Shown here: positions 1 through 64,000 of the stretch, in pieces | Position numbering within the stretch: position 1 is the stretch's first letter | Layout: each line of letters begins with the position of its first letter | Virus record (IMG/VR): IMGVR_UViG_3300045988_123629 | Strand: one strand, 5' to 3' | Length of the DNA: 64,000 bases | DNA from: a virus | Position numbers and translations under genes: made by a program | Notes under the pieces: model-generated | Told to the model about the DNA's origin: nothing | What the model saw: only the letters and a program-made list of their open reading frames with translations | The model's database searches: none

Positions 1-1221
1 CCAAAATAAATTAATATAATGTTGGAAAGTATTAAAATAAGCAAAAAGACAGTCATCTAATTTTTCGCCAATATCTTTTATGATATCAGCTTCAATTTCA
101 AGTCGTTCCAAATAATTTTTATTATTATAAAGTTGCTTTTCTTGTAAAGCTTTAATACATTCATTTACCCAATATCGTTCTTGAATATTGTCGCTATTAA
201 TTAAAGAACAGATAATTGGATATTTATCGAACCAATTTGAAGGAATAAATCCTTTCTTATAATCCTTTACTTCAACTTTTGGAATAATTTGTTTTCTTTC
301 TAATGAATAAAAAGAAATTTTATTTTGGATCTCTTGAGTGTTATCAAGAATCCAATTTATCAATTCTTTTCCTGTTTTATTACCTTTATCCCAATCATTA
401 GCATAAGGTTCCATTAATTCAAAAATTTCATCACTCGTCATTAAGTAAGTAAATTTATAAAAATCGTCAACTTCTCTTTCTCCTGGCTTAGAAGTAAGAT
501 ATGCTTTATGAATGGATCTATCGTCTTTAGTTAAATAATGCGCATCTGTTCCAACTACCATTTTTAAATCAAATGCCTTGGCGATTTGATAAATTTTATG
601 ATTTACAATTATTTGCTCAGCATCAGTAGATGGCGCACATTCAAGATAAAAATCATCTTTTCCAAATACTTTAATACAAAAATTGATATAATCAATTATT
701 TGATTATAATATTTAGTTTGAGTTTCAATATCTTTGTTTAATTCAGCTTGGAACATTGGTAAAATACAACTCCCAAGTTCTCCACCAATACAAGCAGTTG
801 TTGCTATAACATGCCCTTTATATTGTTCCATTACCATTTCAAGTTCACTTTTTAAAGTAGGAACTCGTTCCATACGTCTATCAACATAACTATGAATCCA
901 AGCAATAGAACTTAATTCTCTTAACGCTTTATGTCCAATGGCATCTTTAGCAATAAGAATAAAGTGGTAATATTTTTGTCCGTTATCTCTTGTATCAGTG
1001 AGATAAATTTCATTACCAAGAGCAATAGTAAAATCAGGATTTTCTTCTCTTATTTTTTTTGCATATTGATTTACTTCCATATGCGCAGAAAGGCATTCAT
1101 GGTCTGTAATAGTTATTCCTGATAGGCCTAATTCTATCGCTTTGTCAATAAGAGCTTGTGGTCTATTAATACAGTCAAAGTAAGCGGAGATTCGAATACA
1201 TAGTATGATTATGGATACCAA
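1..1221 (-). CDS. dnaE: DNA polymerase III alpha (DnaE-type) N-terminal PHP domain, 5'-partial in window (gene runs off the window start)
   Basis: The minus-strand frame with codons on plus positions 1-3, 4-6 and so on is open from 1221 to 1 with no stop. The translation (...ISAYFDCINRPQALIDKAIELGLSGITITDHECLSAH...HFILIAKDAIGHKALRELSSIAW...TACIGGELGSCIL) matches the DnaE PHP-domain N-terminus. There is no ATG; the likely start is TTG at 1221..1219. The frame continues from the upstream HNH ORF across a single TGA. Confidence 0.6.
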   Translation of the reverse strand, partial: MVSIIILCIRISAYFDCINRPQALIDKAIELGLSGITITDHECLSAHMEVNQYAKKIREENPDFTIALGNEIYLTDTRDNGQKYYHFILIAKDAIGHKALRELSSIAWIHSYVDRRMERVPTLKSELEMVMEQYKGHVIATTACIGGELGSCILPMFQAELNKDIETQTKYYNQIIDYINFCIKVFGKDDFYLECAPSTDAEQIIVNHKIYQIAKAFDLKMVVGTDAHYLTKDDRSIHKAYLTSKPGEREVDDFYKFTYLMTSDEIFELMEPYANDWDKGNKTGKELINWILDNTQEIQNKISFYSLERKQIIPKVEVKDYKKGFIPSNWFDKYPIICSLINSDNIQERYWVNECIKALQEKQLYNNKNYLERLEIEADIIKDIGEKLDDCLFAYFNTFQHYINLFW

Positions 1222-1230
1222 AATATGATC

Positions 1231-1896
1231 TCATTCTAACTCCAGCCCTCCTTCCAAATTCATTATTTTATCAATAAAATAATCTGAAGTAGTATTTGTT
1301 TTTATTTTAAAAGCATTCCATTCTTCCATTGTCATATCTCTTTTTGAAAAATTTTCATAAACTGTTAAAAATTGATAATTTTCTAATTTTTCTTCTCCAC
1401 CTTTGGAGATTGGAATTATATGATCTAAGCTAGGTTTGGCCCAATCATAAAATGTTTTATTTTTATTCTTATTATTATTCCAAAATTGGTATACTTTATT
1501 AAATTGTTTATCTTGCCAAAAATATCTTATAATAGTTTTATATTCTTCAATATGATTATTATAATAAAGCAAATCTCTATGAGTAATTCTTAATGCTTTA
1601 TGTAAAAATAAATATTTTTCAAAATCTTCTTTAAATTCATTAAGAAAATCTTCTTCAACTTCTATATAAGTTGTTGCTTGGAAAGCTTTTTTCTTTCTAT
1701 CACAACCACAACTAGTTTGGGTATAATTCCCATTCCCTGTTAAATATGAAGTAGGCACTTTACAATAATTGCCGCATTCACATTTACACAGCCAATAATT
1801 TCCATGGGTTTGTGTCGGACGTTCTTCTATTGAGCAAAGACGTATAACTTTTAATTTTCCAATTTGTTTATCAGTTAAGTCATATTTTGTAGCCAT
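1231..1896 (-). CDS. HNH homing endonuclease (N-terminal Cys-repeat Zn ribbon plus HNH core)
   Basis: Track ORF of 221 aa. The motif HIIPISKGG...ENYQ is an HNH core. The N-terminus (LTDKQIGKLKVI...YWLCKCECGN...SCGC) matches the Cys-repeat module of three other paralogues in the window. It ends with TGA. Confidence 0.65.
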   Translation of the reverse strand: MATKYDLTDKQIGKLKVIRLCSIEERPTQTHGNYWLCKCECGNYCKVPTSYLTGNGNYTQTSCGCDRKKKAFQATTYIEVEEDFLNEFKEDFEKYLFLHKALRITHRDLLYYNNHIEEYKTIIRYFWQDKQFNKVYQFWNNNKNKNKTFYDWAKPSLDHIIPISKGGEEKLENYQFLTVYENFSKRDMTMEEWNAFKIKTNTTSDYFIDKIMNLEGGLELE

Positions 1897-1997
1897 AAAA
1901 AATCTCCTTTAATTTTGTTATATTATTTGAAAATCTAACAATAGAAATTTTTTAAGGTTGCCCGATTTTCATTTATATTTATATAATATCATATTAT

Positions 1998-2261
1998 TTA
2001 ATAATAATCAAATCGAGAGATATAATTATCGCATATACTACGAATATCTTTTAAAAAATCAGCAAATTCCCTTGACCGAGATGATATCTTATGCATATTA
2101 TCACAAACCATAGAATTTAATGTATCTAATTCTACATTTAAGTCATGGGTAAAAAGTTCTAAATTAGAATTTAAATCCTAAGCTAAATCCGCGTCTTTAA
2201 GAAACATATTATTTTCAAGTATAGCATTAATACTTGAATTTAAATTAGATGTATTTAACAT
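1998..2261 (-). CDS. hypothetical protein (87 aa) with one in-frame TAG
   Basis: ATG at 2261..2259 preceded by GGAAG. The frame stays open through a TAG (..KDADLA-TAG-DLNSNLE..) to a TAA at 2000..1998. Confidence 0.45.
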
Positions 2262-2262
2262 A

Positions 2263-62424: not shown

Positions 62425-62721
62425 TTACTTCTTAAGCCCATTTAGCATTCCATTGTCGATTTGTGTCCAAATACCATTTACTTTAATAAAAATGCCACCT
62501 TTGTGAATTTCTGGTCCAGATACAAAAGCACCAGAACCAGCATTTTGATAAAATTTTTCTCCGACATTATCATACAAACCAACAGCGCCAGAAGGGCTTT
62601 TGCATGGCACAAAATCACGAACTAAAGTGCCATTATCATAAATTTTACAAAAGTATAATCTTGCTGAAATTGCTTGACTTAAATTCGGAGTTCCGGCAAC
62701 TTCACCGCAAAAATTAAAATA
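62425..62721 (-). CDS. tail fiber C-terminal receptor-binding-like module (frame-shifted relative to 62679..63014)
   Basis: The frame is open from a TAA at 62724-62722 and reads ..SARLYFCKIYDNGTLVRDFVPCKSPSGAVGLYDNVGEKFYQNAGSGAFVSGP... There is no canonical start. It is homologous to the C-termini of fibers 1 and 2. Confidence 0.35.
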   Translation of the reverse strand, partial: YFNFCGEVAGTPNLSQAISARLYFCKIYDNGTLVRDFVPCKSPSGAVGLYDNVGEKFYQNAGSGAFVSGPEIHKGGIFIKVNGIWTQIDNGMLNGLKK

Positions 62722-63014
62722 TTATCTTTCTTATCTATATTCCCTTTAATATCAAAAGAAAATGTTGTTCCATTTACAAGGACAGATCCGTTTGCTCCAT
62801 TTGCTGAAATGTCTATTTCATAATCGGCTCCAACAGTCGCATTCCAAGACCAGACACTATGAGAGTTTGCTACAAATAATTCGCTTTGATAAATATTTAT
62901 GCTATATAACGTAGAGTCAGAATATTGAGAATCTTGTGTGCCAATTAATGTTTTACTAGAATACTTGTCAAGAAATCTAAATTTCATATTTAGTTCTTCA
63001 TAGTTACTCGTCAT
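62679..63014 (-). CDS. tail fiber protein 3, body segment
   Basis: Track ORF ending at a TAA at 62679. The conserved C-terminal module continues in the -1 frame (see 62425..62721). Confidence 0.35.
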   Translation of the reverse strand: MTSNYEELNMKFRFLDKYSSKTLIGTQDSQYSDSTLYSINIYQSELFVANSHSVWSWNATVGADYEIDISANGANGSVLVNGTTFSFDIKGNIDKKDNILIFAVKLPELRI

Positions 63015-63378
63015 TTTATAACCAGTATTAATATACTAAGTTCCGCTACTTTCAATATATTCTAAAAGTATATATCCAATAGGTAATCCCATCAATCATC
63101 CCTCATTCACTATATTGAATCCAAATATCTCCATTTTTACCGTCAGCGGCTGTTGGAGCAGAAGTGGACATTATAATATTGCGGACTTGAGGTGTGGTAT
63201 AATTTGTATTAGATTGAGCAATAAGAGGACCTGTCATAGTTATTCCAGATTTTGGCACATAATTATTAAAATTTCCAGTAGACCAAGTATTGGATGAATC
63301 AATTGAAGGGGAATCTATTGCACCAAAAGACTTAAAATAAAAAGTATAATTGCTATGATCTTTAGATACTTCATTTAA

Positions 63379-63603
63379 CTAATAAGTTATTACAGTTTCA
63401 GCGCCTCCAGCATCATCATCAGCGATATTTCTTTTTATACAAATTATATCTCCTTTAGTAAAATGCTCTACAATTTCAGAATAAGATGTACTTCCATAAG
63501 TTCCAACAAATATTCCTCCGTTTTCAGCCATTTGTAAAAAAATTCTAGGTTTAGACATATTATCCCTCCTTATTAAGTCCAAGCAACAGGAACGGCAGTC
63601 CAA
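63379..63603 (-). CDS. hypothetical protein (74 aa)
   Basis: Track ORF. Confidence 0.25.
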   Translation of the reverse strand: MDCRSCCLDLIRRDNMSKPRIFLQMAENGGIFVGTYGSTSYSEIVEHFTKGDIICIKRNIADDDAGGAETVITY

Positions 63604-63938
63604 GCGCTGGTATTAGAACTTCTATATTTAAGAAATCCAGTTGAAGAAGTAGTATCAATCCAAAGAAGTGGCGTTGTACCTGAAGCAGGGGCCGTTGTTC
63701 CAATATAAATAGCATAATTAGTATTTGTACCTATTACTGGTGTTTTATCTATGGTAGTCCAAGTACCATCTGCTCGTAGATATTTCGTAGTTCCGCCTCC
63801 TGAAGCGGGGACTGTACCGGCTTTAGAAGCGGTAAATGTTGCTGGTGTTGCATTATCTACGTATTTCTTTGTTGCTATATCTCCATCCGCACTTGGTGTA
63901 TATGAATTATCCATAGTAATTTTACCATTTGCGGTCAT
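63573..63938 (-). CDS. tail fiber/collar-like protein (may extend beyond the window end)
   Basis: Contains IATKKYVDNA, which resembles a phage tail-fiber N-terminal motif. Rich in Thr, Ser and Gly. Confidence 0.4.
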   Translation of the reverse strand: MTANGKITMDNSYTPSADGDIATKKYVDNATPATFTASKAGTVPASGGGTTKYLRADGTWTTIDKTPVIGTNTNYAIYIGTTAPASGTTPLLWIDTTSSTGFLKYRSSNTSAWTAVPVAWT

Positions 63939-64000
63939 TATATTAGATTTATTTTTATAAACAGCTTGGGTTAAATCATCAGGAATAGTAGCAAGTTTAT

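What the first reader, a model, noticed from the sequence alone, without database searches (positions are those of the whole stretch)
1..64000. TAG (amber) is used as a sense codon throughout the window; only TAA and TGA terminate genes
At least 20 genes here need TAG to be read as an amino acid. In each case, conserved homologous protein sequence runs on both sides of the TAG in one frame, with no frameshift and no other stop. Examples follow. The Dda-like helicase carries its Walker A region upstream of TAG 2818-2820 and motif VI downstream. The RecJ-like gene has four TAGs between its DHH motifs. The DnaB-like helicase has its N-terminal domain upstream of two TAGs. The endolysin holds 8 TAGs, including a TAG-TAG pair, between its lysozyme-like and amidase_2 halves. 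The radical SAM gene has CxxxCxxC upstream and SPASM downstream of TAGs. The GIY-YIG gene at 21577..22266 has 5 TAGs. Paralogue C of the Cys-repeat endonucleases has 5 TAGs, and the tail fibers also carry them. Every gene end I checked is TAA or TGA, usually followed by an RBS and a start. In the Cys-repeat paralogues, the motif W-x-C-[Q/K]-C-x-C-G has Q in two copies (CQCKCG, CQCDCG), K in two copies, and TAG in the fifth (YWKC-TAG-CECGN). This fits TAG read as Gln, the reassignment already known from crAss-like and Lak phages, although Lys cannot be excluded. No tRNA with a CUA anticodon was found among the 8 tRNAs in this window.
Basis: partly seen in the sequence, partly recalled or inferred. 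Interest (0 to 1): 0.85.

Follow-up and report, generated by a model that had tools for sequence, protein, structure and literature searches.

The report
Phage reads TAG as glutamine
This 64-kb piece of a roughly 195-kb gut phage genome uses the stop codon TAG as a glutamine codon in about a third of its genes; this is real, but it is a trick already well described in gut phages.

Summary
Twenty-five of 78 minus-strand genes carry about 60 in-frame TAGs. These lie inside Pfam domains of the endolysin, RecJ, DnaB, GIY-YIG and radical SAM genes. All 77 complete genes end in TAA (61) or TGA (16). Reading TAG as sense raises coding density from 78% to 89%; reading TGA as sense does not. I compared real codons with 68 related metagenomic loci. 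Window TAGs align to TAG 230 times, then CAA/CAG 77, then AAA/AAG 31. Maximum-likelihood decoding gives Gln by more than 100 log units over Lys or Glu. The window has 7 tRNAs and none has anticodon CUA. In relatives about 95-97% identical at the nucleotide level, a tRNA(CUA) sits about 12 kb beyond the window's right edge. It has an unpaired 1:72 position and G73, as tRNA-Gln does. TAG use is not "throughout": a central 26-kb block has 1 TAG against 157 CAA/CAG outside three nuclease genes. This fits the published model of standard-code early genes and recoded later genes. It is genetic code 15, known from crAss-like, Lak and other gut phages, and the protein database already translates this lineage that way. 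Side observations (tRNAs interrupted by tRNA-shaped inserts, a vault-protein homologue) are more unusual than the finding itself.

The parts
25483..26784 (-). Endolysin (Phage_lysozyme2 + Amidase_2), 433 aa. It has 8 in-frame TAGs at codons 53, 130, 139, 146, 152, 153, 301 and 343. The tandem TAG-TAG is at 26326-26331.
   Evidence: Pfam matches 3-165 (5e-25) and 188-324 (3e-25) run across the TAGs. The PDB amidases XlyA and PlyL align across codon 301. Relatives have CAA/CAG or TAG at these sites.
5724..7472 (-). RecJ-like DHH exonuclease, 582 aa, with 6 in-frame TAGs at codons 70, 160, 246, 336, 543 and 566.
   Evidence: DHH 66-210, DHHA1 355-450 and RecJ_OB 474-571 lie in one frame across the TAGs.
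9433..10965 (-). DnaB-like replicative helicase, 510 aa, with 2 TAGs at codons 23 and 59, inside the N-terminal domain.
   Evidence: DnaB N 13-96 and DnaB_C 207-471. Relatives have Gln codons at both sites.
2263..3456 (-). Dda/PIF1-like SF1 helicase, 397 aa, with 1 TAG at codon 213 (window 2818-2820).
   Evidence: AAA_30 14-185 lies upstream and UvrD_C_2 346-395 downstream, in the same frame.
21577..22266 (-). GIY-YIG endonuclease, 229 aa, with 5 TAGs at codons 25, 74, 86, 172 and 222.
   Evidence: The GIY-YIG match 2-82 spans two of the TAGs. The TAGs are kept or replaced by sense codons in relatives.
15121..16134 (-). Coiled-coil protein with a C-terminal GIY-YIG domain, 337 aa, with 4 TAGs at codons 53, 79, 93 and 196.
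   Evidence: GIY-YIG 249-329 lies downstream of all four TAGs in the same frame. Site 15547-15549 aligns to Q 10 times.
28942..30234 (-). Radical SAM/SPASM protein, 430 aa, with 3 TAGs at codons 7, 72 and 286.
   Evidence: Radical_SAM 33-192 spans codon 72. SPASM 289-362 follows codon 286.
43918..44709 (-). Cys-repeat / DUF2726-type nuclease paralogue, 263 aa, with 5 TAGs. One is in the motif YWKC-TAG-CECGN.
   Evidence: Paralogues at 1231-1896, 37156-37908(+) and 41596-42339 have Q, K or E at the motif position.
41596..42339 (-). Cys-repeat nuclease paralogue, 247 aa, with 2 TAGs at codons 29 and 243.
   Evidence: The TAG 4 codons before the TAA could be either sense or terminator.
34719..35201 (-). 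HNH endonuclease-like gene, 160 aa, with 2 TAGs. It is one of three TAG-bearing genes inside the otherwise TAG-free central block.
59399..63558 (-). Four tail-fibre-like genes (59399-61018, 61019-62305, 62679-63092, 63103-63558) with 3-4, 2, 1 and 1 TAGs.
   Evidence: Structural genes just outside the window in relatives are TAG-rich, with 28 TAGs in 2584 aa.
12767..14843 (-). Two further TAG-bearing genes. 12767-13714 has 1 TAG, which aligns to Q 16 times in relatives. 14181-14843 has 2 TAGs, which align to Q 5 and 4 times.
30566..31737 (-). Cys/Gly-rich protein (2 TAGs) and a 150-aa protein (2 TAGs).
31968..58013 (-). Block readable with the standard code: 1 TAG against 157 CAA/CAG outside three nuclease genes. 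It holds SPFH/flotillin, phosphoesterases, a macro domain, RNA ligase, RlaP, an MVP-like protein, DUF2828/DUF7788 and a methylase.
   Evidence: Fisher p = 8e-8 against the rest of the window. Annotation. Several of these genes have higher GC content and avoid TTA/CTA/TCA.
54546..58715 (-). tRNA array of 7 genes: Cys(GCA), Lys(UUU) with a 68-nt insert, Gly(UCC), Leu(UAA) with a 736-nt intron, Ser(GGA), Ser(UGA) and Thr(UGU). None has anticodon CUA.
   Evidence: A custom scan for CUA anticodon arms found nothing credible.

Best explanation
The window is about one third of a roughly 190-197 kb tailed phage genome from gut metagenomes that uses genetic code 15: TAG is translated as glutamine, and TAA and TGA are the terminators.

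Decoding is done by a phage-encoded amber-suppressor tRNA with anticodon CUA. This tRNA lies in a second, larger tRNA array about 12 kb upstream of the window's right edge, on the same strand as the window's genes. It has the acceptor-end marks of tRNA-Gln (position 1 unpaired with 72, and G73) and keeps U35. It would therefore be charged through the host's Gln route. This charging step is inferred.

Genes in the central block of the window contain no TAG, so the unmodified host machinery can translate them. Replication, homing-nuclease, lysis and tail-fibre genes contain TAG, so they yield full-length protein only once the suppressor tRNA is present. This gives a translational timer of the kind proposed for other recoded phages. 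The timing is inferred, not shown.
For: Shown:
- In-frame TAGs lie inside Pfam domain matches in one frame.
- In the stop-flank test, TAG scores 11/22, TAA 2/54 and TGA 0/15.
- Coding density is 0.782 (code 11), 0.889 (TAG-sense) and 0.778 (TGA-sense).
- 25 of 78 genes carry TAG; all genes end in TAA or TGA.
- TAG sites are conserved as TAG 230 times in independent assemblies, and otherwise replaced mostly by CAA/CAG (77 of 269).
- In the reverse direction, Gln is enriched 7-fold over any other residue.
- Likelihood decoding gives Q, with working controls.
- A tRNA(CUA) is present in 8 of 8 relatives at the same locus. Rfam scores it as tRNA at 56 bits, E = 3e-10.
- Those contigs are 94-97% identical to the window at the nucleotide level where they overlap.
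- TAG-free and TAG-bearing blocks differ at p = 8e-8.
- Structural genes outside the window are TAG-rich.

From the literature: the same pattern and model are described in bioRxiv 10.1101/2021.08.26.457843. Proteomic proof of code 15 in crAss-like phages is in PMC9523058.
Against: - There is no protein-level evidence for this phage.
- The suppressor tRNA is not in the window. It is inferred from relatives.
- Relatives carry three unrelated-looking CUA tRNA variants (90, 73 and 72 nt). The variant in the closest relatives has a long variable region, a trait of class II tRNAs (Ser, Leu, Tyr). The charging enzyme is therefore not certain.
- Only 13 of 37 informative sites have Gln as the plurality residue. 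Many TAGs sit at variable positions.
- Replication genes also carry TAG, so a simple early/late split is not clean.
- No release-factor gene (GGQ motif) was found in the DNA held, which covers about 117 of about 193 kb of the closest genome.
- The host, and whether it has GlnRS or the GatCAB route, is unknown.
Confidence: 0.9

Rival explanations
1. TAG is a sense codon but codes for something other than Gln: Lys or pyrrolysine, or Ser/Tyr/Leu because the closest relatives' CUA tRNA has a long variable region.
For: - K is the second or third most common aligned residue (31 of 269).
- The Cys-repeat motif has K in two paralogues.
- ARAGORN labels the tRNA 'Pyl' from its anticodon alone.
- The 90-nt variant has a variable region of about 21 nt.
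Against: - Log-likelihoods are Q -771, K -1002 and S -1075. With identical codons excluded they are Q -696, E -800 and K -809.
- Ser and Tyr align to TAG only 8 and 2 times out of 269.
- The CUA tRNAs have an ordinary D loop with GG and, in two of three variants, a GGTTCGA T loop. This is unlike tRNA-Pyl (established knowledge).
- The variable-region hairpin is only about 3 bp.
- Position 73 is G, whereas bacterial tRNA-Tyr has A.
Confidence: 0.04
2. TAG is a genuine stop, and the TAG-bearing genes are pseudogenes, split genes or assembly and sequencing errors.
For: Under code 11 the fragments are still ORFs, and the window alone cannot prove translation.
Against: - The same TAGs recur at the same codons in many independent assemblies from different samples (230 alignments).
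- The downstream sequence stays in frame and matches the rest of the same Pfam domain.
- Essential genes such as DnaB and the endolysin would be broken.
- TAA and TGA never show this pattern.
Confidence: 0.01
3. The host itself reads TAG as Gln, so the phage simply matches its host and there is no code switch during infection.
For: The host is unknown. Code-matched phage-host pairs exist for code 25.
Against: - Only 32% of genes use TAG, and a 26-kb block avoids it. The cited study reports about 90% of genes recoded in code-matched phages, against 26-71% in phages of standard-code hosts.
- The phage lineage carries its own CUA tRNA.
- No bacterium with code 15 is known (my knowledge).
Confidence: 0.03
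4. TAG has a dual meaning: suppression is partial, so some TAGs, especially near 3' ends, still terminate and produce both short and long products.
For: - Several TAGs lie 4-20 codons before the TAA/TGA: 41596-42339 codon 243 of 247, 10955-11266 codon 97 of 103, and 21577-22266 codon 222 of 229.
- No phage RF2 or anti-RF1 function was found, so host RF1 would compete with the suppressor.
Against: - Two of those late TAGs are replaced by sense codons in relatives: D at 10976-10978, and T, Q or K at 21601-21603.
- Domain-internal TAGs must be read through efficiently for the enzymes to work.
Confidence: 0.25

Closest known systems
Code-15 (TAG to Gln) crAss-like phages
   Same: In-frame TAG is read as Gln. 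TAA and TGA are the terminators. A phage suppressor tRNA(CUA) is present. TAG is concentrated in later-expressed genes. These are gut phages. Code 15 has been proven by metaproteomics in two crAss-like phages (PMC9523058).
   Different: - Genome size is about 195 kb here, against about 100 kb in crAss-like phages.
- No close relative was found among GenBank phage records: no megablast hit, and a gyrase-B-like protein at no more than 43% identity.
- Here, replication genes (RecJ, DnaB, helicase) also carry TAG.
Lak megaphages (TAG-recoded, Prevotella hosts)
   Same: TAG is recoded. Replication genes are mostly in the alternative code. The phage encodes a suppressor tRNA.
   Different: Lak genomes are about 560 kb, and some encode RF2. 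No release factor was seen in the DNA held here.
Jade / Sapphire / Agate clades of recoded gut phages (bioRxiv 10.1101/2021.08.26.457843)
   Same: - Genomes are 150-210 kb, with structural and lysis genes in several recoded modules spread over the genome.
- Only a minority of genes are recoded: 26% in the Sapphire clade, against 32% in this window.
- A homing endonuclease is preferentially recoded.
- The model is a switch in genetic code partway through infection.
   Different: Membership could not be tested: there is no terminase in the DNA held and no reference sequences were available. Jade and the analysed Agate genomes recode TGA, whereas this phage recodes TAG.
phAss-1 group (136 kb, TAG in 41 ORFs; PMC10607447)
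   Same: A human-gut phage with in-frame TAG in many ORFs.
   Different: Genome size differs. No close match to this window was found in the GenBank phage collection that should hold phAss-1.
Classical amber suppressor supE, tRNA-Gln(CUA) of E. coli
   Same: Anticodon CUA, one base away from the Gln anticodon CUG. It has a weak or unpaired 1:72 position and G73, the acceptor-end marks read by GlnRS (established knowledge). The phage tRNAs share these marks.
   Different: The phage tRNAs are not close in sequence to the phage's own tRNA-Gln(UUG), with no more than 69% identity to any of the lineage's tRNAs. One variant has a long variable region. Charging has not been tested.

Membership tests
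Genetic code 15 phage (TAG = Gln) | In-frame TAG inside conserved protein domains, with the same frame continuing downstream. | tested here: met
   Pfam matches span TAGs in the endolysin, RecJ, DnaB, GIY-YIG and radical SAM genes. A PDB amidase alignment spans endolysin codon 301.
Genetic code 15 phage (TAG = Gln) | Coding density and ORF length rise when TAG is treated as sense, but not when another stop codon is. | tested here: met
   Density is 0.782 (code 11), 0.889 (TAG-sense) and 0.778 (TGA-sense). The stop-flank test gives TAG 11/22, TAA 2/54 and TGA 0/15.
Genetic code 15 phage (TAG = Gln) | TAG positions align to Gln in homologues. | tested here: met
   CAA/CAG make up 77 of 269 non-TAG alignments. 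Likelihood decoding gives Q. In the reverse direction, Gln scores 21 per 1000 against at most 2.9 for other residues. I read codons from DNA, because the protein database already writes Q for TAG in this lineage.
Genetic code 15 phage (TAG = Gln) | A phage-encoded suppressor tRNA with anticodon CUA. | tested here: inconclusive
   It is absent from the window. It is present in 8 of 8 relatives about 12 kb beyond the right edge. Those relatives are 94-97% identical to the window where they overlap. The window's own genome could not be read there.
Genetic code 15 phage (TAG = Gln) | A subset of genes is readable with the standard code, and the recoded codon is enriched in lysis and structural genes. 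| tested here: met
   The central block has 1 TAG against 157 Gln codons; the rest has 50 against 304 (p = 8e-8). The endolysin has 8 TAGs. Tail and structural genes are TAG-rich. Replication genes also carry TAG.
Genetic code 15 phage (TAG = Gln) | Peptides with Gln at TAG positions. | not testable with these tools
   This needs proteomics.
Genetic code 15 phage (TAG = Gln) | Accessory code-change genes (RF2, aminoacyl-tRNA synthetase). These are optional and seen in only some recoded phages. | tested here: not met
   No GGQ release-factor motif was found in 3.5 Mb of held loci. About 75 kb of the closest genome was not examined.
Pyrrolysine decoding of TAG | TAG aligns to Lys; a tRNA-Pyl with an atypical D loop and T loop; pylS/pylBCD genes. 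| tested here: not met
   Q is favoured over K by more than 100 log units. The CUA tRNAs score as ordinary tRNA at 56 bits and have standard D and T loops. I did not search specifically for pyl genes.
Sapphire-type clade of recoded gut phages (Borges et al.) | Placement in the large-terminase phylogeny. | not testable with these tools
   No terminase gene is in the DNA held, and no reference sequences were available. Only indirect similarity supports membership: relatives are 190-197 kb, and 32% of window genes are recoded against 26% for the clade.

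The most novel reading that the evidence does not exclude
In this lineage the code switch may be tied to unusual tRNA processing.

- The phage's own tRNA-Gln(UUG), next to the CUA suppressor in relatives, is split by a 122-123 nt element. Its tRNA-Lys(UUU), in the window, is split by a 68-nt element.
- Both elements sit in the anticodon loop at or near position 34/35. Both are small and tRNA-shaped.
- No known bacterial or self-splicing mechanism removes such elements.
- The phage also encodes an RNA ligase and RNA-repair-type proteins.

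If these elements are cut out by tRNA-end-processing enzymes and the halves are rejoined by the phage ligase, this would be a new tRNA splicing route in a bacterial virus. It could control when the normal Gln and Lys tRNAs, as opposed to the suppressor, become available.
Probability: 0.1. Interest if true: 0.75.

Novelty: already known. Interest (0 to 1): 0.25.

Why it matters
For annotation, it matters directly. With the standard code, a third of the genes in this window, including the endolysin, RecJ, DnaB and the tail fibres, would be called as fragments, and about 11% of the window (coding density 0.78 against 0.89) would go uncalled. For biology, it adds one more large gut phage lineage in which a stop codon is reassigned and unevenly distributed among gene classes. 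That fits the idea that recoding times late gene expression. It does not open a new question: the phenomenon, the suppressor tRNA mechanism and the regulatory model have all been published, and code 15 has been confirmed by proteomics in other phages.

Tried and rejected
- **Codon-usage frame score around each stop.** It was too noisy, partly because antisense frames look coding. I replaced it with the open-flank test.
- **Megablast of 8 kb against GenBank phages.** No match. tblastn gave only relatives at no more than 43% identity, so no annotated reference genome could be read.
- **Database homologues with Q at all 8 endolysin TAG sites.** These looked decisive. However, the underlying DNA has TAG there, and the database had translated it as Q. 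I rejected this as independent evidence and compared codons from DNA instead.
- **ARAGORN's 'tRNA-Stop(tta)' at 56427-57252.** I rejected it. The exons equal an intact tRNA-Leu(UAA) of a relative.
- **ARAGORN's 'Thr(tgt)' with an intron at 55067-55209.** I re-read it as tRNA-Lys(UUU).
- **ARAGORN's 'tRNA-Phe' with a 1116-nt intron at low threshold.** Ignored as spurious.
- **Custom scan for CUA anticodon arms in the window.** It gave one AT-rich candidate at 59122-59194(+) that does not fold better than shuffled sequence (z = -0.95).
- **'SeC(tca)' calls in L181 and L182.** These have a poor acceptor stem, so I do not take them as opal suppressors.
- **Walking left of the window and into the structural module.** No tRNAs were found there.
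- **GGQ motif search for release factors.** Nothing relevant.
- **Exact search for the 68-nt tRNA insert in IMG/VR.** It occurs only in 4 contigs of this same lineage, so there is no evidence that it is a widespread mobile element.

Full report
**What the window is.**
- The 64-kb window has 32% G+C, and almost all of its genes lie on the minus strand.
- It has no near match among GenBank phage records. The best protein-level relatives there are no more than 43% identical.
- IMG/VR holds many relatives. Their contigs are 190-197 kb long, and their gyrase-B-like protein is 98-99% identical to the window's.
- Where those contigs overlap the window they are 94-97% identical at the nucleotide level.
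- The window is therefore about a third of a large gut phage genome. It also occurs in Hadza and other human gut assemblies.

**Checking the observation.**
- I translated the minus strand with only TAA and TGA as stops. This gives a tight tiling of genes.
- With conservative start calls, 25 of 78 genes have at least one internal TAG, about 60 in all. Gene ends are 61 TAA and 16 TGA.
- Pfam matches run across the TAGs in one frame:
  - Endolysin: Phage_lysozyme2 (residues 3-165, full profile) contains six TAGs and Amidase_2 (188-324) contains one.
  - RecJ-like: DHH (66-210) and RecJ_OB (474-571) contain two TAGs each.
  - DnaB-like: the N-terminal domain (13-96) contains both TAGs.
  - GIY-YIG (2-82) contains two TAGs.
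  - Radical_SAM (33-192) contains one TAG.
- Solved amidase structures align through endolysin codon 301.

**Is it more than chance?**
- On the minus strand I looked at stops with at least 80 open codons upstream. The frame stays open for another 80 or more codons after 11 of 22 TAGs, 2 of 54 TAAs and 0 of 15 TGAs.
- A greedy ORF cover gives coding density 0.782 with the standard code, 0.889 with TAG as sense and 0.778 with TGA as sense.

**Which amino acid does TAG encode?**
- A protein search with the endolysin returned a 95%-identical protein with Q at all eight TAG positions.
- That is not independent evidence. The contigs encoding it have TAG at those codons, and the tool reports that the gene does not translate to the database protein under the standard code. 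The database had already applied code 15 to this lineage.
- I therefore compared codons directly. I matched window genes, with X at each TAG, against stop-to-stop ORFs of 68 related loci with blastp, then mapped every aligned column back to DNA.
- Counting identical local contexts once, window TAGs align to TAG 230 times, CAA 53, CAG 24, AAA 22 and GAA 17.
- In the other direction, the relatives' TAGs align to window Gln at 21.4 per 1000 Gln residues. The rate for any other residue is at most 2.9 per 1000.
- I built substitution profiles from the same alignments. The likelihood of the TAG-aligned residues is highest for Q: -771 against -1002 for K.
- With identical codon pairs excluded, Q scores -696 against -800 for E and -809 for K. 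The same procedure decodes 9 of 12 control codons correctly. The failures are one- and two-codon families.
- Gln is well supported.

**How TAG is decoded.**
- The window has seven tRNA genes and none has anticodon CUA.
- Two of them needed re-reading:
  - ARAGORN's 'tRNA-Stop(tta)' at 56427-57252 is tRNA-Leu(UAA) with a 736-nt intron that carries an HNH ORF.
  - Its 'tRNA-Thr' at 55067-55209 is tRNA-Lys(UUU) with a 68-nt insert.
  - In both cases the exons equal intact tRNAs in relatives.
- I then walked outward along the relatives' contigs.
  - Nothing was found to the left of the window or in the structural module beyond it.
  - To the right, all eight relatives fetched have a larger tRNA array that includes a tRNA with anticodon CUA.
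  - In the closest contig this tRNA lies about 12.1 kb beyond window coordinate 64000, on the strand of the window's genes.
  - Rfam scores it as a tRNA at 56 bits.
- Three sequence variants occur, 90, 73 and 72 nt long. All have an unpaired 1:72 position, G73 and the loop CUCUAAA. These are the acceptor-end features of tRNA-Gln, and U35 is kept (tRNA identity rules are from established knowledge).
- None is close in sequence to another tRNA of the lineage, with at most 69% identity.
- The variant in the closest relatives has a long variable region. This leaves some doubt about which enzyme charges it. However, Ser and Tyr almost never align to TAG: 8 and 2 of 269.
- No release-factor motif was found in any DNA held. 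That DNA covers about 117 of about 193 kb of the closest genome.

**Distribution of TAG.**
- TAG is not used throughout the window.
- In the block 31968-58013 there is 1 TAG against 157 CAA/CAG outside three nuclease genes (HNH 34719-35201 and the Cys-repeat paralogues 41596-42339 and 43918-44709).
- The rest of the window has 50 TAGs against 304 CAA/CAG (p = 8e-8).
- The TAG-free block holds SPFH/flotillin, phosphoesterases, RNA ligase, RlaP, a major-vault-protein homologue, a DUF2828/DUF7788 protein and a methylase.
- TAG is densest in the endolysin, in GIY-YIG and Cys-repeat nucleases, and in tail and structural genes. One structural gene just outside the window has 28 TAGs in 2584 aa.
- Replication genes (RecJ, DnaB, helicase) also carry TAG.
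- This matches the published picture. In phages of standard-code hosts, 26-71% of genes are recoded, lysis and structural genes preferentially. Use of the alternative code in replication genes varies between clades. A homing endonuclease is among the most recoded genes. The proposed function is to delay late proteins until the suppressor is made (bioRxiv 10.1101/2021.08.26.457843).
- The timing itself is inferred here, not shown.

**Comparison with what is known.**
- This is genetic code 15, as described for crAss-like and Lak phages and for the larger 'gemstone' clades of gut phages.
- Code 15 has been confirmed by metaproteomics in crAss-like phages (PMC9523058).
Membership needs a terminase phylogeny that I could not run.
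- The finding is real and correctly interpreted, but it is not new.

**Things noticed along the way** (more unusual than the finding itself).
- tRNA-Lys in the window, and tRNA-Gln in relatives (next to the suppressor), are interrupted in the anticodon loop by small elements of 68 and about 123 nt. Each element has a 7-bp terminal stem and a T-arm-like hairpin. The 68-nt element is found only in this lineage.
- A RAGATH-33 RNA sits 14 nt downstream of tRNA-Leu.
- A subset of TAG-free genes has much higher G+C, prefers CAG, and avoids TTA, CTA and TCA completely. This leaves full-length antisense ORFs.

Noticed in passing
window 55067-55209 (-): tRNA-Lys(UUU) is interrupted after U34 by a 68-nt element. 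The element itself looks like a small tRNA: a 7-bp terminal stem, D-like and T-like arms, and an ending of N-CCA. The exons are identical to intact tRNA-Lys genes in relatives (L117:13880-13954, L124:14606-14680). It is too small for a group I intron, and no known removal mechanism exists in bacteria. An exact search finds it only in 4 IMG/VR contigs of this lineage.
   Followed up: partly
L179:7184-7380 (also L178, L180-L183, L185); intact copy at L184:6437-6513: In relatives, the phage's own tRNA-Gln(UUG) lies directly upstream of the CUA suppressor tRNA. It carries a 122-123 nt element in the anticodon loop, again with a 7-bp terminal stem and a T-arm-like hairpin. This could link the supply of normal Gln tRNA to the code switch.
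   Followed up: partly
window 56427-57252 (-), ORF 56588-57034: tRNA-Leu(UAA) is split at U34/A35 by a 736-nt intron that encodes an HNH endonuclease. This is the classic insertion site of the cyanobacterial and plastid tRNA-Leu group I intron. The exons equal the intact L124:13549-13636. Rfam reports no group I intron match even at E = 1. ARAGORN miscalls the gene as an ochre suppressor.
   Followed up: partly
window 56285-56413 (-): A RAGATH-33 RNA scores 124.5 bits against a gathering score of 120.4. It lies 14 nt downstream of the tRNA-Leu gene. Its function is unknown.
   Followed up: no
window 48002-50500 (-) and 50968-52494 (-); also 40218-41594 (-), 44994-45800 (-): A major-vault-protein homologue (MVP_shoulder 3.8e-21 plus a Vault repeat) sits next to a DUF2828/DUF7788 protein. 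The same TAG-free block holds an RNA ligase and an RlaP-type RNA-repair protein. A sub-threshold Y-RNA-like (YrlA) hit occurs in the relatives' tRNA array (L179:5261-5382). This may be a phage RNA-protein particle or RNA-repair module.
   Followed up: no
window + strand 48002-50536, 40146-41558, 31950-33338, 12767-13720, 51145-52614: Full-length antisense ORFs lie opposite a subset of minus-strand genes. Those genes have G+C of 39-50% against 28-35% elsewhere. They prefer CAG to CAA, have at most one TAG, and use almost no TTA, CTA or TCA codons (0 of 833 in the MVP-like gene). Possible reasons are host-adapted early or highly expressed genes, or recent acquisitions.
   Followed up: partly
L178-L185, about 12 kb right of the window: Three unrelated-looking CUA suppressor tRNA variants (90, 73 and 72 nt) occupy the same locus in close relatives. 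This suggests repeated replacement of the suppressor. The 90-nt form has a long variable region.
   Followed up: partly
L179:1523-1573: A sub-threshold twister-P1 ribozyme match (41 bits, gathering score 67) lies within the relatives' large tRNA array.
   Followed up: no
protein database entries P0001-P0003 against loci L001-L007: The public protein collection already translates this lineage with TAG as Q. Database homologues therefore cannot serve as independent evidence for what the codon means.
   Followed up: yes
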